Counted from the first letter of the stretch, positions 1,296-51,582 are shown. The stretch: 56,113 bases of DNA from a virus (IMGVR_UViG_2923334124_000002); one strand, 5' to 3'. The notes: a model not told the origin generated them from the letters alone. Translations and numbers: made by a program.

Positions 1296-1964
1296 ATGGT
1301 GAAATCAATGAAAAAAAACACAGATGATGGGGCTAAAATTTACACACCACTTACCCTAAAGCTTTATGACTGGTGGGTTTTGGGAGTATCAAATCGGCTT
1401 GCATGGGGATGTCCTACAAAGGAACACCTTCTTCCACACTTTCTGGAACATGTAGGTAACAACCATCTGGATATTGGTGTTGGAACTGGGTTTTACCTTA
1501 CTCACGTACCTGAGAGTAGTCTGATATCTTTAATGGATTTGAACGAAGCTAGCCTGAACGCGGCATCTACAAGGGCTGGGGAATCAAAAATTAAACATAA
1601 AATTAGCCATGATGTTTTTGAACCTTATCCCGCGGCGTTACATGGTCAATTTGATTCCATTTCCATGTTTTACCTTCTTCACTGCCTGCCTGGAAATATA
1701 TCTACAAAAAGCTGTGTAATACGCAATGCGGCGCAGGCCTTAACTGACGATGGAACTCTATACGGAGCCACAATTCTTGGCGATGGAGTTGTGCACAATA
1801 GCTTCGGTCAAAAACTGATGCGCATTTACAATCAGAAAGGCATCTTTTCAAACACAAAAGATTCCGAAGAAGGCTTAACACATATACTCTCAGAGCATTT
1901 CGAGAATGTTAAAACCAAGGTTCAAGGTACTGTAGTAATGTTTTCCGCTTCAGGGAAAAAATAG
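1296..1964 (+). CDS. class I SAM-dependent methyltransferase (cargo/moron gene; substrate unknown)
   Basis: 222 aa; glycine-rich motif I LDIGVGTG; AT-rich relative to flanks; second ATG at 1308 has a GGTGA SD-like sequence. Confidence 0.7.
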   Translation: MVKSMKKNTDDGAKIYTPLTLKLYDWWVLGVSNRLAWGCPTKEHLLPHFLEHVGNNHLDIGVGTGFYLTHVPESSLISLMDLNEASLNAASTRAGESKIKHKISHDVFEPYPAALHGQFDSISMFYLLHCLPGNISTKSCVIRNAAQALTDDGTLYGATILGDGVVHNSFGQKLMRIYNQKGIFSNTKDSEEGLTHILSEHFENVKTKVQGTVVMFSASGKK

Positions 1965-4547: not shown

Positions 4548-7373
4548 TTAAACGCTCGCTACATTATACCAGGTGCCATTTATATACTTTTGAACGGGTC
4601 TGTAATAAACGCCCGCTATATTATCGGCAGAGTTAGACCCTGTATCCTGAACATTAATACCAGACAATACATGACCTGAAGGGCACTGGAAATTCCATGT
4701 TTGCCAGTTGTTCACTCCATAATATTGCTGTGAACCAAGTCGAACATCTTTCACATAACGGGAATCAAAGTTACCGTAATCCGAGGGGTTAACACGCCCT
4801 GTAATATTTATGGTTTTATTACTTTGAATGCTTCCGGAGACAAAGCGCATAACATGGACGTTATTAGCATAAACATCCAGATTACCATCGCCATTTTGTT
4901 TAAAGCCCGTGTCATTATCACCCAATACAATCGAATTACCGCCAAGAGCACTGGATGTTCCGATACCCAGTGCACCATTCAGTTGACCACCAGATAACGG
5001 CAGTGCACCAACATCTCCTGCTGAAGGCTTTCTGGTGGTGGTGTAAAATTCGGACCAGTCGGCTTCAAAACCATAACCATCACGGGCTGAACGATAAAAA
5101 ATACCGCCATTTTTATAATTAATCCGAAACTGAGCTGCAGGACAACTTCCTTCTCCCATATAAAAATGAATAATTAACGTTGATGCACCACTAATAGTTG
5201 CGTTATAGGCTCCGCTACTCCAGTTCCATCCAACTGCTTTATCATTCGCAACGGTGCTTCCTGTTTTCCCTAAGGCAAACGCACCAACATGACTTGCTTT
5301 TAATGTGATATCGGAGGAACCATCAAAAGCCACATTGCTTATTTTCCTGGCAGTTTTTAATTTTGCAGCTGTAGAAGCATTGCCGGATAGTTCACCAGAA
5401 AGGCCACCGCTGAATGTTTGTCGATTAGTCCAGGTATTCGCTGTACTGAGTAACGGTATTTTCTCCCCGCTTGTGCCGAGTTCTCGTAAACCGAGGTATT
5501 CGATAACGGCGGCAACGGTCGATTTCGCAAGAATATCCCGCCCAACTTTTGTCAGGGTTGCCAGACTGGCAACATCATTCCCCGTAAAATACGGAAACCT
5601 GTCTGCCGCAGTAGCAAGCCCGGCCAGCGCCGTCAGGGTGGCATCTTTCGGTTGCTTACCCGCAAGCGCGCTAGTCATGGTGGTCGCAAAATTCGGGTCG
5701 TTGCCCAACGCCGCAGCCAGCTCGTTCAGCGTATTCAGTGCGTCAGGCGACGAGTCCACGAGGGCAGCGATCGCAGCCATAACATAAGCCGTGCTTGCGA
5801 TTTGGGTATTATTCGTTCCCTGTCGCGCAGTTGGTGTTGTTGGCGTTCCGGTCAGTGCAGGACTATTTAAGGGCGCTTTCTTGTTCGTTTCACCCATTAC
5901 CGCCTTAACCGCTTTTGGCGTTGCCGCCAGTGACTCGGAAGTGCTGTTGGTCGCACTGCTGAGCTGTACTATCCCCTTTTTCGTCGTGCTCGCATCCTCA
6001 AGCGCCACGGCGGATGCAATATCCTCTGCCCGTTTTGCCGCTGTCTCGGCGCGCGTTGCCGCGGATTCCGCCGTACTTTTGCTCTGAGCTGCCGCCGTCG
6101 CACTGCCAGCTGCCTCTGTCGCCTTCGTGGATGCCGTCGTGGCGCTGCCCTTTGCTGCTGACGCCTGTCTGGTCGCCTCATCTTTTGAAGCAGACGCAGA
6201 TGATGCCGATGACGCCGCTGAACTGGCTGACGATGCGGCTGCCGCCTTAGAGGAAGCAGCATTGTCTGCTGAAGTCTTTGCATTTGTTTCAGAGGTTTTT
6301 GCTGCAGAAGCAGACCTCGCTGCTGCAGTGGCTTGCTCAGTGGCTTTGCCAGCCTTCGTTGTGGCTGTTGAAGCGGATGATGCGGCGCTTTCTGCCGATT
6401 TTCCGGCGGCGGTGGCACTGGCTGAGGCCTGCCCGGCACTTGTTGACGCGGCACTGGCAGATAATGCAGCCGCTGTTTTTGAACCTGCCGCAGCTGAGGC
6501 GCTCTGTCCCGCTGCTGTTTCAGAAGACTTAGCGTTCGTCTCGGACGTTTTTGCCGCCTTCGCGGAATTTCCTGCCGCCGTTGCCGAGGAAGCTGCACTA
6601 CTGGCACTTGATGATGCATTCGTTTCTGAAGATTTCGCTGCCTCTTTTGAGGCCGCCGCACCCCGTGCCGAGGTGGCAGCTTCTGACGCCTTCGTGGTCG
6701 CTGTGGATGCAGAAGTGGCTGCCGATTTTTGTGATGCTGCGGCATTCGTTTCTGACGTTTTCGCGGCACTGGCGCTGGTAGCTGCCGCGCTTTTTGATGA
6801 CTCTGCAGCAGCAGCACTTTTTGCTGCTTCACGGGCCTTTGTCGATGCCGTTCCTGCGCTGGAAGACGCTGACTGAGCCGACGACGCGGCCTGTCCGGCT
6901 GACGTGCTGGCGGCACGTGATGAGGCTGCAGCATCGGTTGCATGAGTTGCCGCCTCGCTGGCTGATGCACTGGCATCGCTGGCTGATTTTTTCGCGGCTG
7001 CCGTATTCTGTGCAACCGCGGAGGCGTTACGTGACACCTCTTCTACCATCTGCTCAAAGCGGCGCAGTGCCTCCGGTCGTACATCATCCTCCGTCATGGC
7101 ACCGAGAAAATCATTCAGCGTACCTGGTCTGGAACCTTCATAGACGGTAATGGTCCCGGCATGTGAAGGCGGAAAACCTTCAACCAGCAGGGTGACGCTG
7201 TACTGACCATGCTCAACATCCATGCTGTAACGTCCGGCTTCATCCGGATTTTCAGAGGCCACCGTGTTCACCACCACCGTGCTGCTGGTTCGTCTGGCCT
7301 TCAGCACAATGGTGCAGTTCTGTACTGGTTTTCCTGTGCCATCTTTAAGCACGCCAGAAATTTTTACTGTCAT
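4548..7373 (-). CDS. stf: side tail fiber protein (lambda Stf-like) with long Ala/Ser/Thr-rich low-complexity region
   Basis: 941 aa; N-terminus [22 protein letters not shown]... closely matches remembered lambda Stf; C-terminal about 310 aa lie inside the invertible segment. Confidence 0.85.
5478..5505. other. gix/pix-like inversion crossover site inside stf (inverted relative to 2399..2426)
   Basis: reverse complement ttatcgaatacctcggtttacgagaac matches site at 2399..2426 with about 4 mismatches. Confidence 0.6.
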
Positions 7374-10777: not shown

Positions 10778-13700
10778 TCAGCTAATCGTGATGCCTGCAG
10801 TGGCTTTCTTCATCACCACAACCAGCAAATCGCTGATACTTGCTGTGGGATACCAGTTATTTACCAGCCATGCTGACACCGAAAACTCCAGTGTCATGTG
10901 ACCGTGACCGGCAGGCATATCAATAACACCACTGTAAATCAGCGTATTATCCAGCGCGGTACGGTTATAAATTTCAGCACCGTTTTTCCGCACTATCAGA
11001 CGGCATGAGGAGTAAATATCAGTATGCTCTTTCTCATGTTTAGCGCCGCTGAATGCCACCGCCGGAATAACAATCTGCCGGTCAAACGGCTGATCGTCAT
11101 AAACCCTGACGGTAATGGTTCCTGATGGCCACCGCTCCGGTGCACGGGAGTCCCGGGGGAAAGCTTTGCCCACTGTTTTAACGAGATCGCCTTCAATCTG
11201 GTTCGCGGACAATTTTCCCAGAACCCGACAGTTCTCGTTAATCGTGACGTTGTTGAGCGTCCCGGAGTTCGCATTCACGTTACCGCTGATATCGGCATTT
11301 TTCGCCGTCAGCCGCCCGTCCGGTGTCAGGGAAAATGCCGGAGGATTACCGCCGCTGGTAATGGTGGGAGCCGTCAGATATTTCAGGAACACTTCATTCA
11401 TAAATATCTGATCGCCCTGACCAACAAACATCGGCTTTGTGTTGCCATTCGCAGGATTAATCATCGCAATCCTGTCTGCCGCCAGCAGCACCTGACTCTG
11501 CATTCCTGCTGGCGTATTCTCAATACCGGCACCGATACCCGCAATATAAAGGCGTCCGTCCTGCATCTGCTGCAGTTTCACGGCCCACATGCTGTTCAGG
11601 TTATTATTTGTATCAACCTGAACTTTCTGTATCTGCTGGATTGCCGCACTCTGATTTTCCAGTTTTTTATTGACGGTCTGCGTGATTTCATTGCTGACAT
11701 TCGTAATGGACGTCCTGATTTCAGCCAGGTCCGGCGCAAGCTGACCGTTATCAATCTGCGTCCACAGCTCCTGGGCCAGATGTGTTTTCCCGATTTCTCC
11801 TTTGAAAAAATCCAGGTAACCTTCCGCATCATCGCTCGCCCGACCGACAGCCTCCACGAATGCCGATTTGCCAACAGTATTCACACTGCGGATATAAAAA
11901 TAATAATCATGGCCCGGTTTGATATTGATACTGGCAGCTATCCAGTACAGCGCCGAGCCAAGATAGCGGGCTGCGGTTTCAACCTGCCTGATATCCGCAA
12001 TCCGCTTTTCCGAGAACCAGAACTCAAACTGTACCGTCGGGTCATAAACGGCAAGATGTGGCGTTGCGGTTATCTGAAAATAGCCCGGCGTCAGCTCAAT
12101 CCGCGACGGTGCTGCCGGTGCGGCAATCCGGAAGGTGGTGGTGGCAGGTTCACCCTGCTGGCCATAGCTGTTTATCGCCCGCACCGTCAGGGTGTATTCC
12201 CCGAGCGGCAGGCCGCTGAAACGGTGCTCCGTGTCTGCGGTGATGGCGGTGGTCACCAGTCTGGCATCCGTTCCCTTACCACTGGTCAGGCGCAGACTGA
12301 AGCGCACACCCTTCACCACCCGCGGCGTGTCCCATTTCGCCTGCGCCAGATACTGGCCGTCAGCTGCGCTCACCTCCACCGTCAGGTGCTGCACTGCCGG
12401 TGGGATGACGCTGTTCAGGGAACCTGACTGCGGCTCAAAGCGGGCACCGTTATCCACGATGGCTTCTTTTTCCGGTACGTGCTGCACCGCCGTGATGGCA
12501 AAGGTGCCGTCCGTGTTTTCCCGGATGGAGACACAGCGGAACAGGCGACGGCGCAGTGACGGCAGGGAGAGTCCCCACACCCCGTATGTCTCCACACCAT
12601 CAGGCAGGGTACTGACCTGTATCCGGTCCGGCGCGGGGTGTGCGGTGATGTCCACACTCACCGGCTTACCGCTGCCGTTAATCAGGTTCACCGCCGATGT
12701 ACCTGTCTCCGGCAGGGTAACCTCACGGTCCAGCGTCAGGGTGCGGGTGGCAGCATCAATGGACAGGACACGTCCGCCGGTCAGGGTCCCGGCATAGTCA
12801 TTATCACAGATTTCAATAATGTCACCGGGTGTGTGCCGCAGCCCCTGAGACCCGAGCGTGAAATCCACCGTCTGCGTTTCCAGCAGTTCGGTCTTTATCA
12901 CCCACAGTCCGGCACGGTGGGCCTGACCGCGGCTGGTACAGCCGAACGCGTCCATCTTCAGCAGGTTGCGTCCGTAGCGCAGTATGGCTTCCGGGTCTTC
13001 CACCAGTTCCGTGGAGGTCTGCCAGCCGTTCTGCGGGTCGGTGTAATTCACCTCCACCGCCGTGTGCCGGTCCTTCAGGGCACTGAAGCTGTAGCGGAAT
13101 CCCACGCCGTTATCATCCACCACCACATCGCTGTTGGTGTACGGCCACACCACATCCGACGGGCGGTCCTGAACGAACGTCAGCGTCTGACCGTTCCATA
13201 CCGGCATACAGCGCATCGCAGAGCAGAAATCACTGAGAACGTCCCACGCCTTACGCTGTTGTGCCAGGTACGCATTAAAGGTCATCCGCGGCTCGGTCCC
13301 CCCGAAACCATCCGGGACCGTCTGGTCGCAGTACTGCCCGATGGCATACAGCGCCCACTTGTCCACATCCGCCGCCCCCAGACGTTTTCCCATGCCGTAG
13401 CGCGGGTGAGTCAGCATGTCCCACAGACACCAGGCCGGGTTGTTGCTGTATGCCGGTTTCAGACTGCCGTCCCAGATACCACTATACGTGCGTTTTTCCG
13501 GGTCATAGTTTGACGGCACCTGGATGATGCGACCGCGGATATGGTAGTTCACCGTCATCTGCTGGCCGCCGAACTGCTCCGCATCCACCTGCAGCCCCAC
13601 AATGGCCGTGTTCGGGTAGCACTGTTTCACATCGATGATTTCGGTGTATGACGACCACAGCGTCTTATTCTGCAGCTGGTCCGTGGTGCTGTCCGCCGTC

Positions 13701-14251
13701 TCCCTGACCATCCGGATGTTAAAGGGCCGGGGAGGCAGATTATCCAGAATCACCGAGGCCAGGAACTGTGAGGTGGTCTTGCCGTTAATGGTGACGTCCT
13801 TTTCTGTCACCCAGTTACCGTTACGCTGTAACTGAATCAGCAGGCGGACGGATGCCGGGTTACGGTCACCCTTTGAGGTGGTCTCCACCAGTGACTGCAC
13901 CCCGAAGGTAACCCGCAGGCGGTCAATGTTCGCGGACGTAATGGTGCGCGTCACCGGTTTTGCCTTCGTCACTTCCACGCCCAGTCCGGTTTCAGCTCCG
14001 GAGGACTCAAAGCCTTCCGGTGGTGTCTGCTCCTGCTCCCCGGCGCGCCAGACCGCCGTCACACCGTGTATCACGGGATTGCCGTCCGTGTCCGTCAGTG
14101 GGGTTTTGTTCACCAGAATACTCTGCAGTCCCTTCACCGGACCTTCTATCGGTCCCTCACCAATCGCATCAATCACGCTCATCATCTGCGTGGATTTGAG
14201 ATTATCCTTCGCCTCACGAGGCGTGTGTGCCTTACCGCCACCTTTTCCCAT
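10778..14251 (-). CDS. J: host specificity protein J (central tail fiber / tip attachment protein)
   Basis: 1157 aa; colinear with remembered lambda J along its whole length. Confidence 0.9.
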
Positions 14252-14352
14252 ACAGCCTTCCCCTGAATAAATTAACCGCCACTTGCCATTCCGTACAGAA
14301 GTCGGATATCCTTCGCCCGAAAAGCATGAAACACATTTCTGCCATGCTAAAG

Positions 14353-14385
14353 AGAAACCCCGGTATCAGCAGATACCGGGGTTTT
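14353..14385. terminator. bidirectional hairpin (aaaccccggtatc...gataccggggttt) with U-rich flanks in the I-J intergenic insert
   Basis: perfect 12-bp inverted repeat read from sequence. Confidence 0.4.
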
Positions 14386-14554
14386 CTTTCATGCCCACCG
14401 ATAATCCTGTTGGTTAAAACCGGTAATGGCATAAAAATTCTGAATATCTTCACATTTTCACACACTGACTGTGGCGCTTATAATTTCGCTGCGTTAGTGT
14501 TTTTTTGCCCGAGTAACAAAAACAACTCCTTAACATTGATCTTCATTTGTCTGT

Positions 14555-14589
14555 CCCCGCAGCTCCGCGATCACTGCGGGATTTTTTTA
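14555..14589 (+). terminator. rho-independent terminator on the plus strand (ccccgcag...ctgcggg + TTTTTTT), antisense to the tail operon
   Basis: GC stem followed by 7 T; lies about 70 nt downstream of a TTCACA-N16-TATAAT promoter-like element. Confidence 0.45.
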
Positions 14590-14593
14590 TGTT

Positions 14594-15274
14594 TTATCCC
14601 TGTCGCCCGATAACCACGACCGTTCCGCCCCCGCCTTCATCACGGGTGCTGATGTCCTGGGATATACGGCGGGAGCCAACCAGCATTTCCCCGTAAGGCA
14701 CCGGCATCGGGTTCCCCTGGGCAATCATGTTATCCAGCGAGGAAAAGTACGTGTTCTGTCTGCCGTTATCCGTTGCGCGGTAATCCGGTGTTTTTGCCTT
14801 CGGGGCCAGCATCTGGGCCACACCGCCCAGAATCATGCTGGCTCCAAGTGAAAACAGCATCGTGGTGGCAGAAAAACCACCGGCTGCCAGGGCTGAACCC
14901 CATAACGCCATTGATGCCCCGGCAGTGAAGAAAGAGCCCACGATGGCTGCCGCCCCCAGCACAATCTGCAGTCCACCCTTTCCGGCCCCGGCCAGTCGCG
15001 GCACAATATGGATGACCGTTCCCTCACCCAGCTGTTCGTGAAGACGGGCGTACACCGCCTCCGGTGCCGTGTCATAACCGGCAATACGTATCTGGTACCA
15101 GCCTTCGTTCATCTGACGGCGAAAGCCCGGCACCTGTAACGACAGCGCCCGGATGGCTTCCGCTGCCGTGTTCACATACAGGCTGAGGCGGCGGCCAAAT
15201 CGTTGTAAATCCCCGTGAAGGCAGATGCGTGCCAGTGGCGGTGACGCCAGACAGAATGCGTTCGTCGTTGCCAT
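14594..15274 (-). CDS. I: tail assembly protein I
   Basis: 226 aa; matches remembered lambda I (ARICLxGDLQRFGRR..., Gly/Ala-rich hydrophobic segment). Confidence 0.85.
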   Translation of the reverse strand: MATTNAFCLASPPLARICLHGDLQRFGRRLSLYVNTAAEAIRALSLQVPGFRRQMNEGWYQIRIAGYDTAPEAVYARLHEQLGEGTVIHIVPRLAGAGKGGLQIVLGAAAIVGSFFTAGASMALWGSALAAGGFSATTMLFSLGASMILGGVAQMLAPKAKTPDYRATDNGRQNTYFSSLDNMIAQGNPMPVPYGEMLVGSRRISQDISTRDEGGGGTVVVIGRQG

Positions 15275-15915
15275 TTTTCGGAATACCTCTCCCGTTTACT
15301 CAGTTGTTCAGGCAGATGGTGAAGCAGCTCACCGTTGCCGCAGTAAATGGCGGCATGGTTCGGTACCGAAGCACCAAAGCAGCACAGCAGAATATCGCCC
15401 GCCTGTGCAGAGGACAGGGGCACCCGGTAAAAGCCGGTGACCGCCATATTGTCCAGGTAAAGGTTCTGACCGTTGCGCCACCAGTCATCCTCGCGATGAA
15501 AATCCGGCATTTCAGTCCCCGCCAGATGATAAGCATCCCGGAACAGCGTGTAACAGTCCGTCACCCCGTGCTCAAAGCGCCGTCCTGTCAGATGTGGCAC
15601 ACAGCGGAATTTGTGAATGTCACCCCGGCAGACCAGCCACCAGGGCAGTGCGCTTTTTATCTGCAGCCGCCGGTCAGCCTCGCTCAGCCAGGGCAGCCCA
15701 CCGGGATGACTGTGGACCAGTGCCACAATCTCCCCCTGCATCTCTGCCCGCAGCCAGTCTTCCGGTGCGATACGAAAATACGCCTCCGGCTCTGCAGAAA
15801 TATTCACACAAGGGATATACCACTCCCCCTCCGACGTGCTTATCACGAAGCCGCACGACTCCGCAGGCGCACACCGCCGGGCATGCGCCAGAATCGCTGA
15901 TTCAGTCTGTGTCAT
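15172..15915 (-). CDS. K: tail assembly protein K (JAB/MPN + NlpC/P60-like)
   Basis: starts MTQTESAILAHARRC...; HSHPGG motif; overlaps I by about 100 nt as in lambda. Confidence 0.85.
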   Translation of the reverse strand: MTQTESAILAHARRCAPAESCGFVISTSEGEWYIPCVNISAEPEAYFRIAPEDWLRAEMQGEIVALVHSHPGGLPWLSEADRRLQIKSALPWWLVCRGDIHKFRCVPHLTGRRFEHGVTDCYTLFRDAYHLAGTEMPDFHREDDWWRNGQNLYLDNMAVTGFYRVPLSSAQAGDILLCCFGASVPNHAAIYCGNGELLHHLPEQLSKRERYSEKWQRRTHSVWRHRHWHASAFTGIYNDLAAASACM

Positions 15916-39238: not shown

Positions 39239-39685
39239 GGAGTTTACTCACATCTGACAAAATCAATATAAACAGCCCCTCCGGAGAGGGGCTGGAGAGT
39301 GGCGCTATGTGCCATTGCATGGTGCCGGGTGCCTCCCGGTGAATTCAGTACCAGCACCTGAATCCGCGATTATCCCATATACCTACTCGCTGATTGCCCC
39401 TCCGCACAGGGGGATTCACCATGCCAGTTTCTTTTAACAAACTCCCCGCAAACCAGACAACAATCAACCGCCTGAATTGTGAAGTATTTAAAAATTTCTC
39501 CCGCTAACTGATACCCGGCTAACAGTCTGGCGTTTTCTTTTTCAGCAACGGGAAAGCAACAACCACCACACCCGCCACCAGCACACCGTCAGCCAGCACT
39601 GACATTATCCGGCTGCAGCAATGCCATTCACAAAAACAGTAAGCAATCACTTTTTACCGTAACCGGTGATAATCCAGATATGTAT

Positions 39686-40149: not shown

Positions 40150-40226
40150 TGGCGCGCTGTACTGGATTCGAACCAGTGACCGATTGCTTAGAAGGCAATT
40201 GCTCTGTCCGGCTGAGCTAACAACGC
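40150..40226 (-). tRNA. argO: tRNA-Arg (anticodon TCT)
   Basis: cloverleaf-compatible 77-nt sequence gcgttgttagctcagc...ccttCTaagc...ttcgaatcc...gcgcgcca read on minus strand. Confidence 0.8.
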
Positions 40227-40326: not shown

Positions 40327-40402
40327 TGGTGGCCCTTGCTGGATTTGAACCAGCGACCTGGCGATTATGAGTCGCTCGCTCTCACCACTGAGCTAAAGGG
40401 CC
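40327..40402 (-). tRNA. ileZ: tRNA-Ile2 (anticodon CAT, lysidine-type) or tRNA-Met
   Basis: ggccctttagctcagtggtgagagc...actCATaatcg...ggttcaaatcc...gggccacca; closely resembles remembered ileX/ileZ. Confidence 0.8.
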
Positions 40403-44772: not shown

Positions 44773-44928
44773 TTACTCCTCAGGTTCGTAAGCTGTGAAG
44801 ACAGCGACCTCCGTCTGGCCGGTTCGGAGTCGTACCTCGCAGAGGTCTTTCCTCGTTACCAGTGCCGTCACTATGACGGTTAAACAGATGACGATCAGGG
44901 CGATTAACATCGCCTTTTGCTGCTTCAT
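44773..44928 (-). CDS. hok: Hok-family type I toxin (HokD/RelF-like)
   Basis: MKQQKAMLIALIVICLTVIVTALVTRKDLCEVRLRTGQTEVAVFTAYEPEE is near-identical to remembered HokD. Confidence 0.85.
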   Translation of the reverse strand: MKQQKAMLIALIVICLTVIVTALVTRKDLCEVRLRTGQTEVAVFTAYEPEE

Positions 44929-45165
44929 AGCCTGCTTCCCCTTGCCTTTCGGCACGTAAGAGGCTAACCTACATTTGTGAGACATAGATTGGGCCTCAGA
45001 TTAATGTTAAGCGTCTTGCAGGACGCGAAATGTTAACTGGGGCTTTTCTCTATCTGCCTTTCAGTGTTCATGCCTGAGACAGATAGCCTCAAGCACCCGC
45101 AGCCATTCTACTTAACTCACGTCACCTCGCCAATATGAAATCAATCAGAAAGGTGATCCATAAAA

Positions 45166-51524: not shown

Positions 51525-51582
51525 TTTCTGGTGACGTTTGGCGGTATCAGTTTTACTCCGTGACTGCTCTGCCGCCCTTTTT
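51525..51582 (+). ncRNA. dicF: DicF sRNA (ftsZ-targeting, processed from the dicB operon transcript)
   Basis: tttctggtgacgtttggcggtatcagttttactccgtgactgctctgccgcccttttt matches remembered DicF including terminator-like 3' end; preceded by about 340 nt ORF-free structured leader and followed by dicB. Confidence 0.6.

What the first reader, a model, noticed from the sequence alone, without database searches (positions are those of the whole stretch)
14252..14593. Roughly 280-bp insert between tail genes I and J with a candidate antisense small RNA
Lambda has about 60 bp between I and J; here there are 342 bp. On the plus strand (antisense to the tail operon) there is a near-consensus promoter TTCACA-N16-TATAAT (14457..14484) and, about 70 nt downstream, a strong rho-independent terminator (14555..14589), giving a predicted sRNA of about 95 nt. 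A second perfect hairpin with U-rich flanks on both sides lies at 14353..14385. A terminator-like hairpin inside the late tail operon and an antisense transcription unit are both unusual.
Basis: seen in the sequence. Interest (0 to 1): 0.55.

Follow-up and report, generated by a model that had tools for sequence, protein, structure and literature searches.

The report
Known prophage small RNA PasB

Summary
The I-J spacer is 342 bp (14252..14593), against 60 bp in lambda. It carries a near-consensus promoter (14457..14484), a terminator with a U7 tract (14556..14588), and a second perfect hairpin (about 14355..14384).

The predicted antisense small RNA is real and already published. Window + strand 14506..14588 matches 82 of 83 nt of PasB. 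PasB is an Hfq-dependent sRNA validated by Northern blot and RIL-seq in EPEC E2348/69 (Pearl Mizrahi 2021; Zhu, Shabalina and Storz 2026). The published PasB Northern probe matches 23/23.

A roughly 74% identical version in the same slot of the O157 Sakai prophages Sp15, Sp14 and Sp11 is EcOnc22/23/24 (Tree 2014). None of the papers I read makes that link.

The cassette occurs in 1812 of 5426 complete E. coli genomes. In 108 of 120 IMG/VR loci it lies between recognisable I and J genes.

Things I found beyond the literature I read:
- An invariant CRP-like site (TCTGA-N6-TCACA, 14439..14454) lies upstream of every copy.
- Some genomes carry tandem arrays of up to four cassettes.
- A sense-strand terminator-like hairpin sits on the J side in both spacer types examined.

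The J-proximal 179 bp remains unexplained. Verdict: already known, low to moderate interest.

The parts
14252..14593 (.). I-J intergenic spacer, 342 bp against 60 bp in lambda. It has two modules joined near 14430.
   Evidence: the mosaic joint is seen
14506..14588 (+). PasB sRNA with the published 5' and 3' ends mapped onto the window (83 nt). It carries A at PasB position 27 (window 14532), where E2348/69 has C. Zhu et al. report a PasB/PasB-2 difference at this position.
14491..14588 (+). Possible longer primary transcript (98 nt) if the near-consensus promoter P1 is used. It would include the U-run 14500..14506.
   Evidence: This is inferred from P1. The Hfq-CRAC peak of the Sakai homologue starts before the P2-predicted start once a +128 coordinate offset is applied.
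14457..14484 (+). Promoter P1, TTCACA-N16-TATAAT (11/12). Its -10 is kept as nATAAT in about 90% of 67 variants. Its -35 is variable.
14472..14500 (+). Candidate promoter P2: -35 TGGCGC (14472..14477), a 17-bp spacer and -10 TAGTGT (14495..14500). The predicted start at 14506-14508 coincides with the published PasB 5' end. T14472, G14474, T14495 and A14496 are invariant in 67 variants, and T14500 is kept in about 90%.
   Evidence: the match to the published end comes. Promoter function is inferred.
14431..14457 (+). Invariant upstream module ATAAAA-NN-TCTGA-N6-TCACATTT. The half-sites TCTGA (14439..14443) and TCACA (14450..14454) match 9 of 10 positions of the CRP core TGTGA-N6-TCACA. The centre of the site is at 14446.5.
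   Evidence: CRP binding itself is inferred
14525..14546 (+). Conserved single-stranded body motifs: ACUCCUUAA (14525..14533), which resembles an anti-Shine-Dalgarno sequence, and UUGAUCUUCAU (14536..14546). These are the likely seed region.
   Evidence: Zhu et al. place the PasB seed just upstream of the terminator.
14556..14588 (+). PasB intrinsic terminator and Hfq-binding module: a 7-bp stem CCCGCAG/CTGCGGG, an 11-nt loop and a U7 tract. There is no U-tract on the opposite strand.
   Evidence: A compensatory variant CCCACAG/CTGTGGG occurs in L083.
14252..14430 (.). J-proximal module. It is a single, nearly invariant allele found in 1445 of 5426 genomes. It is absent from E2348/69 and Sakai. 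It pairs with either of two PasB alleles that are about 80% identical to each other.
14349..14389 (.). Bidirectional terminator-like hairpin. On the tail-operon strand it is followed by UUUCUCUUU, and on the + strand by UUUUCUUUC.
14283..14394 (+). Speculative second small transcription unit. It would consist of a weak promoter TTGCCA-N18-TATCCT (14283..14312), a body of about 75 nt with a 5' hairpin and an AAAGAGAAA linker, and the hairpin above as its terminator.
   Evidence: There is no expression data and no sequence variation to test it.
14594..15274 (-). Tail assembly gene I
10778..14251 (-). Tail tip / host specificity gene J

Best explanation
The spacer holds a self-contained small-RNA gene, PasB, inserted between tail genes I and J and pointing against them.

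In the lysogen the late tail operon is silent, while PasB is transcribed from its own sigma-70 promoter region and ends at its own intrinsic terminator. The hairpin plus U7 tail, together with U-rich and A-rich stretches in the body, bind Hfq.

The unstructured body carries two conserved motifs, ACUCCUUAA and UU(G/A)AUCUUC. I propose that these pair in trans with ribosome-binding regions of host and island mRNAs and alter their translation or stability.

- **Shown here:** identity with PasB, its position and strand, the promoter and terminator, and conservation across the family.
- **Taken from the literature, for the allele that differs by 1 nt:** expression, Hfq dependence and many Hfq-mediated RNA partners.
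- **Inferred:** the seed, repression at ribosome-binding sites, and control of transcription by cAMP-CRP through the invariant TCTGA-N6-TCACA site.

The J-proximal 179 bp is a separate module. Its hairpin probably stops ordinary (not Q-modified) transcription from entering J, and stops antisense transcription from running into the PasB promoter.
For: **Identity**
- The alignment matches 82 of 83 nt of PasB, and identity continues from the I stop codon through the promoter to about 14430.
- The PasB probe matches 23/23, with the RNA on the + strand.
- In E2348/69 the gene also lies between the tail assembly gene and gpJ.

**Published behaviour of PasB**
- A Northern blot corroborated the size predicted from RNA-seq coverage (83 nt in Table S6) and showed Hfq-dependent stability. 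Levels are higher in overnight static LB than in DMEM.
- In the hfq deletion mutant, log2 fold change is -6.8 and -2.4 in the two conditions.
- PasB has 37 RIL-seq interactions and is almost always the second RNA in the chimeras.
- Expression level (baseMean) is 482 and 1082, against 4.8 for I and 15 for J.

**Homologue in EHEC**
- EcOnc22/23/24 lie in identical 240-bp I-J spacers of Sp15, Sp14 and Sp11.
- They are bound by Hfq, run at about 85 nt and are destabilised without hfq.
- The 3' 23 nt of the reverse-complemented probe match the Sakai spacer exactly.

**Family conservation**
- The cassette is in 1812 of 5426 genomes, at 5546 places.
- In 108 of 120 IMG/VR loci it has I and J on both sides.
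- The terminator stem is invariant and the rest of the RNA is predicted to be unpaired.
- The promoter module is invariant.

**CRP idea**
- The site matches 9 of 10 core positions of the CRP consensus and is the only match with at most one mismatch in the window.
- The half-sites are fixed while the 6-bp spacer between them varies.
- PasB is low in glucose-containing DMEM, where the sRNA Spf is about 5-fold higher than in LB. That cAMP-CRP represses Spf is established knowledge, not something that paper states.
Against: - No expression data exist for this strain or for this exact allele.
- The 5' end is unresolved. The published end (14506) fits the weak promoter P2. The near-consensus P1 predicts a start at 14491, and the Sakai CRAC peak favours a P1-like start.
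- The CRP-like site is centred at -44.5 from the P1 start and at about -60.5 from the P2 start. Neither is the canonical -41.5 or -61.5.
- One half-site carries C where CRP prefers G.
- A single consensus match of this quality is expected by chance about 1.75 times per window. The argument therefore rests on position and invariance.
- Overnight static LB also switches on sigma-S and FNR, so the growth-condition data are not specific to CRP.
- No PasB target has been validated, and the seed is only inferred from conservation.
- Nothing tests the proposed role of the J-proximal hairpin.
Confidence: 0.85

Rival explanations
1. PasB works mainly in cis. During lytic growth it pairs perfectly with the I-J junction of the late tail mRNA. 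The duplex is then cut by RNase III or otherwise uncouples J from I, which tunes J dosage or delays tail completion.
For: The RNA is fully complementary to 83-98 nt of the polycistronic tail mRNA by construction. The cassette is found only in this slot: 108 of 120 loci have I and J on both sides. Such strict positional fidelity hints at a local role.
Against: The RNA overlaps neither the I nor the J coding sequence, nor J's ribosome-binding site, which lies more than 250 nt away in this window. In E2348/69 it is abundant while I and J are silent. It makes many trans contacts on Hfq. Arrays hold up to four cassettes with different bodies, which fits diversifying trans-acting seeds better than a single cis target. 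The two roles are not mutually exclusive.
Confidence: 0.15
2. The J-proximal half encodes a second, undescribed small RNA on the + strand (about 14319..14394), in tandem with PasB. It would have a weak promoter and the strong hairpin as its terminator.
For: A promoter-like site TTGCCA-N18-TATCCT lies at 14283..14312. The 76-nt segment folds far better than shuffles, with z = -6.7. It has a 5' hairpin, an AAAGAGAAA linker and a hairpin followed by UUUUCUUUC. Tandem cassettes do occur in this slot in other genomes.
Against: The module is essentially one allele (at least 99% identical in 1441 of 1450 records), so conservation and covariation cannot be tested. It shows no similarity to the cassette family and lacks the invariant promoter module. 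There is no Rfam match and no literature match to the hairpin sequence. The same hairpin is at least as well explained as a sense-strand terminator, which the other spacer type also carries.
Confidence: 0.15
3. The spacer encodes a small protein or a type I toxin-antitoxin pair. In that case the conserved nucleotides would reflect a peptide on the tail-operon strand, for example MKINVKELF...
For: Several members have an ATG-initiated ORF of 22-39 codons on the sense strand opposite the PasB seed. One phage record annotates such an ORF.
Against: The ATG is missing in about half of the variants. Downstream frame and length differ between the variants that have it (22, 31, 32 and 39 codons). None of the peptides is hydrophobic. 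The long + strand ORF at 14227..14613 spans the promoter and the terminator and is not kept in other spacers.
Confidence: 0.03
4. The insert is a functionless remnant, and the promoter and terminator matches are coincidence.
For: Single consensus matches do occur by chance. The scan tool expects about one weak promoter-like site and one terminator-like site in a region of this size.
Against: The RNA has been detected by Northern blot, RNA-seq, RIL-seq and CRAC in two pathotypes. It is present in a third of complete E. coli genomes. The promoter module and the terminator stem stay invariant while the rest has diverged by about 25%.
Confidence: 0.02

Closest known systems
PasB (E2348CN_0006), a prophage PP6 sRNA of EPEC E2348/69 (Pearl Mizrahi et al. 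2021, PMC8550237; distribution study by Zhu, Shabalina and Storz 2026, bioRxiv 10.64898/2026.05.13.724894)
   Same: It matches 82 of 83 nt. The promoter region and terminator are identical. It sits in the same I-J slot and in the same antisense orientation. The published Northern probe matches exactly.
   Different: There is one substitution at PasB position 27 (window 14532, A instead of C), which lies inside the ACUCCUUAA motif. Zhu et al. report a PasB/PasB-2 difference at this position. The J-side half of the spacer is unrelated, giving 342 bp here against 240 bp in E2348/69.
EcOnc22/EcOnc23/EcOnc24, Hfq-bound sRNAs of O157:H7 Sakai prophages Sp15, Sp14 and Sp11 (Tree et al. 2014, PMC4104026)
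   Same: They share the I-J slot, the strand, the invariant upstream module, the terminator stem and a size of about 85-90 nt. They are also Hfq-dependent.
   Different: They are only about 74% identical over the cassette, with a different 5' body and a poor -35 element. None of the papers I read connects them to PasB: Zhu et al. never mention EcOnc, and the PasB row of Table S6 leaves the 'homologues in EHEC' column empty.
Phage morons (Juhala et al. 2000; the concept is cited in Tree et al. 2014)
   Same: This is extra DNA relative to lambda, inserted between two conserved late genes. It has its own promoter and terminator and is expressed in the lysogen while the flanking genes are silent.
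   Different: The cargo is a non-coding RNA. It points against the late operon, whereas classic morons encode proteins and usually share the operon's direction.
AgvB and AsxR, anti-sRNAs at the PR' moron site of lambdoid prophages (Rfam RF02702, RF02703)
   Same: They are short, prophage-encoded, Hfq-binding RNAs held at a fixed position in lambdoid prophages, with variable 5' parts and conserved 3' parts.
   Different: They occupy a different locus (downstream of Q and PR', not in the tail operon). There is no sequence or covariance-model match. They are 51-60 nt long, and their mode of action is to sponge core sRNAs.
Lambda OOP RNA and similar phage cis-antisense RNAs
   Same: A short RNA transcribed against a phage operon and ending at an intrinsic terminator.
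   Different: OOP overlaps the 3' end of the cII coding sequence and directs RNase III cleavage. PasB overlaps no coding sequence, and its documented contacts are in trans.

Membership tests
PasB sRNA | Sequence near-identical to the 83-nt PasB of E2348/69 | tested here: met
   82 of 83 nt match, covering window 14506..14588
PasB sRNA | Complementary to the published PasB Northern probe | tested here: met
   23/23 match at 14561..14583, with the RNA on the + strand
PasB sRNA | Lies between tail assembly gene I and gene J, antisense to them | tested here: met
PasB sRNA | [quoted passage not shown] | tested here: met
   A 7-bp stem followed by U7
PasB sRNA | Expressed, and stabilised by Hfq, in the host | not testable with these tools
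   Published only for E2348/69, whose allele differs by 1 nt
EcOnc22/23/24 (EHEC Sakai) | Homologous cassette in the I-J spacer of a lambdoid prophage | tested here: met
   74% identity over 166 bp. The slot is the same and the promoter module and terminator stem are shared. This makes it a homologue, not the same allele.
Rfam sRNA families (AgvB, AsxR, Esr41, DicF, STnc100 and all others in release 15) | Covariance-model match at or near the gathering score | tested here: not met
   Nothing credible in 13500..15500 at E<=1. Nothing in the E2348/69, Sakai or array loci at E<=0.1.
Phage moron | Extra DNA between conserved genes relative to lambda, with its own promoter and terminator | tested here: met
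   342 bp against 60 bp. Promoter and terminator confirmed.
Phage moron | Transcribed from the prophage while flanking late genes are off | not testable with these tools
   The literature value for E2348/69 is pasB baseMean 482/1082, against 4.8 for I and 15 for J.
Cis-antisense regulator of a coding gene (lambda OOP type) | Overlaps the coding sequence or ribosome-binding site of the opposite-strand gene | tested here: not met
   The RNA ends at 14588 and the I stop codon is at 14594..14596. J starts at 14251.
Type I toxin-antitoxin | Conserved small hydrophobic ORF opposite the sRNA | tested here: not met
   The start codon is absent in about half of the variants, and frames and lengths differ.
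CRP-dependent promoter | Match to TGTGA-N6-TCACA with conserved half-sites and a free spacer | tested here: met
   TCTGA-N6-TCACA matches 9 of 10 positions. The half-sites are invariant and the spacer varies in 18 BLAST-derived copies.
CRP-dependent promoter | Site centred at -41.5 (class II) or at -61.5 and similar positions (class I) | tested here: inconclusive
   The centre at 14446.5 is -44.5 from a P1 start at 14491. It is -60.5 or -61.5 from a start at 14507 or 14508. The true start site is unknown.
CRP-dependent promoter | Transcription depends on crp and cAMP | not testable with these tools
   There is only indirect support: PasB is higher in LB than in DMEM, the opposite of Spf.

The most novel reading that the evidence does not exclude
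The I-J junction of lambdoid prophages is a dedicated slot for a diversifying family of small-RNA cassettes. All cassettes share one portable promoter carrying an invariant CRP-type operator, so a third of E. coli strains would wire prophage sRNAs to the host's catabolite state. The cassettes can be stacked in arrays of up to four, with different seeds. They are always accompanied on the J side by a sense-strand intrinsic terminator, which would make J expression strictly dependent on Q antitermination. PasB (EPEC) and EcOnc22-24 (EHEC) would then be alleles of one system.
Probability: 0.35. Interest if true: 0.5.

Novelty: already known. Interest (0 to 1): 0.25.

Why it matters
For the scan, this is a clean positive control. 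A reader working from sequence alone correctly predicted a real, experimentally validated small RNA, including its strand, its terminator and roughly its size.

Biologically, PasB is one of the most highly connected accessory-genome sRNAs in the EPEC RIL-seq network (rank 15 by number of interactions). Its partners are reported to include type III secretion and bfp genes, and its function is still unknown.

Three points here could help specialists:
- PasB and EcOnc22-24 appear to be one family, which would let EPEC and EHEC data be pooled.
- An invariant CRP-like site gives a testable regulatory input.
- Cassette arrays with different bodies suggest how new prophage sRNAs arise.

None of this changes the verdict that the element in this window is already described.

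Tried and rejected
- **Rfam.** A whole-window scan at gathering scores and permissive scans of the region and of related loci gave no family for this RNA. The weak SSRC34_2 hit (27 bits against a threshold of 48) is driven only by the hairpin.
- **AgvB, AsxR and Esr41.** My first guess was one of these. I rejected it because they lie at the PR' moron site or in SpLE1 and show no model match.
- **Covariation in the sRNA.** RNAalifold on 15 variants predicts only the invariant 7-bp terminator stem, with no compensatory pairs. A compensatory variant appears only in one distant member, L083.
- **Covariation in the sense-strand hairpin of the 240-bp spacers.** 98.8% of cells are paired, with one compensatory pair and five G-U wobbles that would be mismatches on the other strand. 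With 8 sequences this is not significant (134 of 500 shuffles do as well).
- **Conserved small ORFs on either strand.** None found.
- **Homology between the J-proximal module and the cassettes.** None. It also has no distant relatives in phages or E. coli.
- **Full-text search for the hairpin sequence.** No paper contains it.
- **Genome-contig scan.** My gapped 19-base pattern was too loose. Most of the 56 hits are chance matches. Only E. albertii and two probable contaminant contigs are real.
- **PasA, PasC and PasD probes.** None matches the window within 5 mismatches.
- **PasB targets.** I could not list individual targets, because the stored supplementary table could not be enumerated within the look-up cap.

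Full report
**1. What is in the sequence**

The tail operon runs on the minus strand. The I ORF occupies 14594..15274 and J occupies 10778..14251, which leaves a 342-bp spacer at 14252..14593. A near-identical annotated phage, PPompW_132418, names the two genes phage tail assembly protein and phage host specificity protein.

On the plus strand, the scan finds TTCACA-N16-TATAAT at 14457..14484 (11 of 12 matches). It also finds a hairpin followed by a T-run at 14564..14580. The full stem is CCCGCAG (14556..14562) paired with CTGCGGG (14574..14580), followed by U7 at 14582..14588. The promoter is the only match of at least 11/12 on either strand of the 56-kb window, where 0.57 are expected.

The second hairpin has a perfect 12-13-bp stem and an AGCA loop. 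It is flanked by A-rich and U-rich runs on both sides. The segment containing it folds much better than shuffled sequence on both strands, with z = -6.7 and -5.7.

**2. What it is**

Rfam 15 has no family for this element. A literature search led to the Pas sRNAs of enteropathogenic E. coli.

Table S6 of Pearl Mizrahi et al. 2021 lists PasB (E2348CN_0006) at NC_011601.1 1466343..1466261 on the minus strand. It is 83 nt long, lies in prophage PP6 between E2348C_1436 and E2348C_1437, and was detected with the Northern probe AATCCCGCAGTGATCGCGGAGCT. That probe is the exact reverse complement of window + 14561..14583.

In E2348/69 the two flanking genes are the tail assembly protein (which ends at 1466255) and gpJ (which starts at 1466496). 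Aligning the two spacers shows identity from the I stop codon through the RNA and its promoter to about window 14430. There is a single mismatch inside the RNA.

The published ends map to window 14506..14588. The mismatch falls at PasB position 27 (window 14532, A here, C in E2348/69).

**3. What is known about PasB**

- A Northern blot corroborated the size predicted from RNA-seq coverage (83 nt in Table S6).
- Its stability depends on Hfq.
- It is more abundant in overnight static LB than in DMEM.
- In the hfq deletion mutant it falls by log2 6.8 and 2.4 in the two conditions.
- It has 37 RIL-seq interactions and is almost always the second RNA in chimeras, the signature of an sRNA.
- Its baseMean is 482 and 1082. 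The flanking I and J genes are essentially silent in the same data, at 4.8 and 15.

PasB is thus an independent transcription unit that is active in the lysogen. Its partners are reported to include core genes, type III secretion genes and bfp genes. No function has been established.

**4. A link I did not find in the papers I read**

A distant BLAST search shows that the I-proximal half of the spacer (window 14428..14593) has versions about 74% identical in many Stx phages, including VT1-Sakai.

In O157:H7 Sakai, the I-J spacers of Sp15, Sp14 and Sp11 are identical 240-bp sequences. Tree et al. 2014 list Hfq-CRAC peaks EcOnc22, EcOnc23 and EcOnc24 in exactly these prophages. They are on the strand opposite the tail genes, give a Northern band of about 85 nt, and are destabilised without hfq. 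The 3' 23 nt of the reverse complement of their shared probe match the Sakai spacer exactly, just upstream of the terminator.

Their coordinates refer to the older assembly. A constant shift of +128, which equals the length difference between the two assemblies, places all three peaks over the probe. This shift is my inference.

Zhu et al. never mention EcOnc. The PasB row of Table S6 leaves the 'homologues in EHEC' column empty. A 2021 review lists the function of EcOnc22 as unknown. As far as I can tell, PasB and EcOnc22-24 are alleles of one family.

**5. Family anatomy**

I collected I-J spacers from 13 further E. coli genomes and phages and aligned 18 copies. Those loci, together with the earlier ones, gave 67 distinct cassette variants.

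- **Distribution.** The cassette occurs in 1812 of 5426 complete E. coli genomes, at 5546 places, with up to 11 copies per genome.
- **Position.** In 108 of 120 IMG/VR loci it has recognisable I and J genes on both sides. Of the other 12, eleven have only one flanking gene recognisable and one has neither.
- **Host range.** Among species-representative genomes it appears only in Escherichia albertii and in two contigs that look like contamination.
- **RNA structure.** The body is predicted to be unpaired apart from an invariant 7-bp terminator stem. One distant member carries a compensatory CCCACAG/CTGTGGG stem.
- **Conserved body motifs.** These are ACUCCUUAA-like, resembling the anti-Shine-Dalgarno sequence, and UUAAUCUUC (UUGAUCUUC in this window). 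The second lies where Zhu et al. place a putative seed.
- **No peptide.** A sense-strand ORF opposite the seed is not conserved, so the conservation is not due to a peptide.

**6. The promoter region**

The 63 bp from 14428 to 14490 have no insertions or deletions in any of the 18 BLAST-derived copies. The most conserved block of the whole cassette is ATAAAA-NN-TCTGA-N6-TCACATTT at 14431..14457. It is invariant in the 18 copies that were gathered by BLAST rather than by motif, while the six bases between the half-sites vary freely.

TCTGA-N6-TCACA matches 9 of 10 positions of the CRP core consensus, and it is the only such match in the window. A lone match of that quality is expected by chance, so the weight lies in its position and its invariance.

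Two -10 elements are conserved downstream.
- **P1.** The TATAAT of P1 is kept as nATAAT in about 90% of variants, but its -35 is variable.
- **P2.** TAGTGT at 14495..14500 has T1 and A2 invariant and T6 at about 90%. The invariant T14472 and G14474 would then be positions 1 and 3 of a weak -35.

P2 predicts a start at 14506-14508, which is the published PasB 5' end. P1 predicts a start at 14491. The Sakai CRAC peak, after the +128 shift, begins 5 nt after the P1-type start and 11 nt before the P2-type start, which favours P1 there.

The CRP-like site is centred at -44.5 relative to P1 and at about -60.5 relative to P2. Neither is canonical, although the second is within 1 bp of the class I position.

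PasB is low in glucose-containing DMEM, where Spf is about 5-fold higher than in LB. It is higher in stationary LB. That cAMP-CRP represses Spf is established knowledge rather than a statement from that paper. The pattern fits CRP activation of PasB, but it would also fit control by sigma-S or FNR.

I rate CRP control as plausible but unproven. The papers I read do not discuss the promoter.

**7. Cassette arrays**

In E. coli O178:H19 2012C-4431 the I-J spacer is 915 bp and holds four tandem cassettes. Each has the same upstream module, a -10 element, a body of about 90 nt and a terminator. One of them has a different body and a different terminator stem (CTCCCGT...ACGGGAG).

IMG/VR loci L131 (four copies) and L126 (three copies, at a contig edge) show the same arrangement. 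One locus, L125, has an insertion sequence in the promoter.

The spacer size classes seen are 233-260, 338-344, 424-428, 917 and 1599 bp. The promoter module is therefore portable and better conserved than the RNA it drives.

**8. The J-proximal half and the second hairpin**

Window 14252..14430 is absent from E2348/69 and Sakai. It occurs in 1445 of 5426 genomes as essentially one allele: at least 99% identical in 1441 of 1450 records. It is combined with either the PasB allele of this window or one about 80% identical to it. The joint lies immediately upstream of the ATAAAA block.

It has no detectable relatives and no similarity to the cassettes.

Its hairpin is terminator-like on both strands. 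The 240-bp spacers carry, at the equivalent place, a different hairpin, CAGGCACCC-UCCG-GGGUGCCUG, followed by UUGUUUUU on the tail-operon strand only. That hairpin shows one compensatory pair and five G-U wobbles that would be mismatches on the other strand, but with 8 sequences the statistics are weak.

A sense-strand terminator-like hairpin between the sRNA promoter and J is thus common to both spacer types I examined.

I infer that it blocks ordinary transcription from entering J while Q-modified polymerase reads through it. In this window it would also shield the PasB promoter from antisense read-through. This is untested.

A second plus-strand sRNA at about 14319..14394 is possible, but it has no support beyond the fold and a weak promoter match.

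**9. Verdict**

The new items are:
- the PasB-EcOnc22 family link;
- the invariant CRP-like operator;
- the cassette arrays;
- the conserved sense-strand hairpin.

These are incremental, and most of them concern related loci rather than this window.

Noticed in passing
window 39264..39453 (-), 44923..45098 (-), 51526..51577 (+), 40153..40226 (-) and 40330..40402 (-): The same prophage carries Rfam-level matches to STnc100 (132 bits), sok (120 bits) and DicF (77 bits), plus two tRNA genes. Zhu et al. relate STnc100 structurally to PasD. The PasA, PasC and PasD probes do not match the window.
   Followed up: partly
L076 2245..3159 (E. coli O178:H19 2012C-4431); also L131 448..1144 and L126 98..578: These are I-J spacers holding three or four tandem sRNA cassettes. 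All share the invariant ATAAAA-NN-TCTGA-N6-TCACATTT module but have different RNA bodies. One body type has its own terminator, CTCCCGT...CGGGAG. I found no description of such arrays in the papers I read.
   Followed up: partly
L002 1192..1431, L074 823..1062, L075 873..1112 (Sakai Sp15, Sp14, Sp11): The three Sakai I-J spacers are identical 240-bp sequences. The EcOnc22/23/24 coordinates in Tree et al. 2014 refer to the older assembly. They need about +128 to fit NC_002695.2, judging from where the Northern probe lies.
   Followed up: yes
L001 about 1925..1946 and the equivalent place in L002-L004, L008-L011, L013-L015: A conserved hairpin CAGGCACCC-UCCG-GGGUGCCUG followed by UUGUUUUU lies on the tail-operon strand, between the sRNA promoter and J. 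It has one compensatory change and strand-specific G-U wobbles. Its function is unknown.
   Followed up: partly
L125 620..654: One IMG/VR prophage has an insertion-sequence end inserted into the cassette promoter, just after TCACATTTTCACAAACTGA. This gives the 1599-bp spacer.
   Followed up: no
L083 1170..1194: A diverged cassette has the terminator stem CCCACAG/CTGTGGG instead of CCCGCAG/CTGCGGG. This is the only compensatory change seen in the otherwise invariant stem.
   Followed up: no
L049 2115..2274 and L031 287..445: Short contigs filed under Streptomyces flavalbus (3408 bp) and Parendozoicomonas haliclonae (460 bp) carry the E. coli prophage cassette at 90% and 74% identity. These are most likely assembly contamination.
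   Followed up: no
L016 1..1225 (PPompW_132418, J-distal side): In the near-identical annotated phage, the type III effector genes espO and nleG lie a few kb beyond J. The sRNA cassette therefore sits next to an effector-carrying end of the prophage. I did not map these genes onto window coordinates.
   Followed up: no
window 14525..14533: The single difference from E2348/69 PasB (14532, A against C) falls inside the conserved ACUCCUUAA motif, which resembles the 3' end of 16S rRNA. The two alleles might therefore differ in target range.
   Followed up: no
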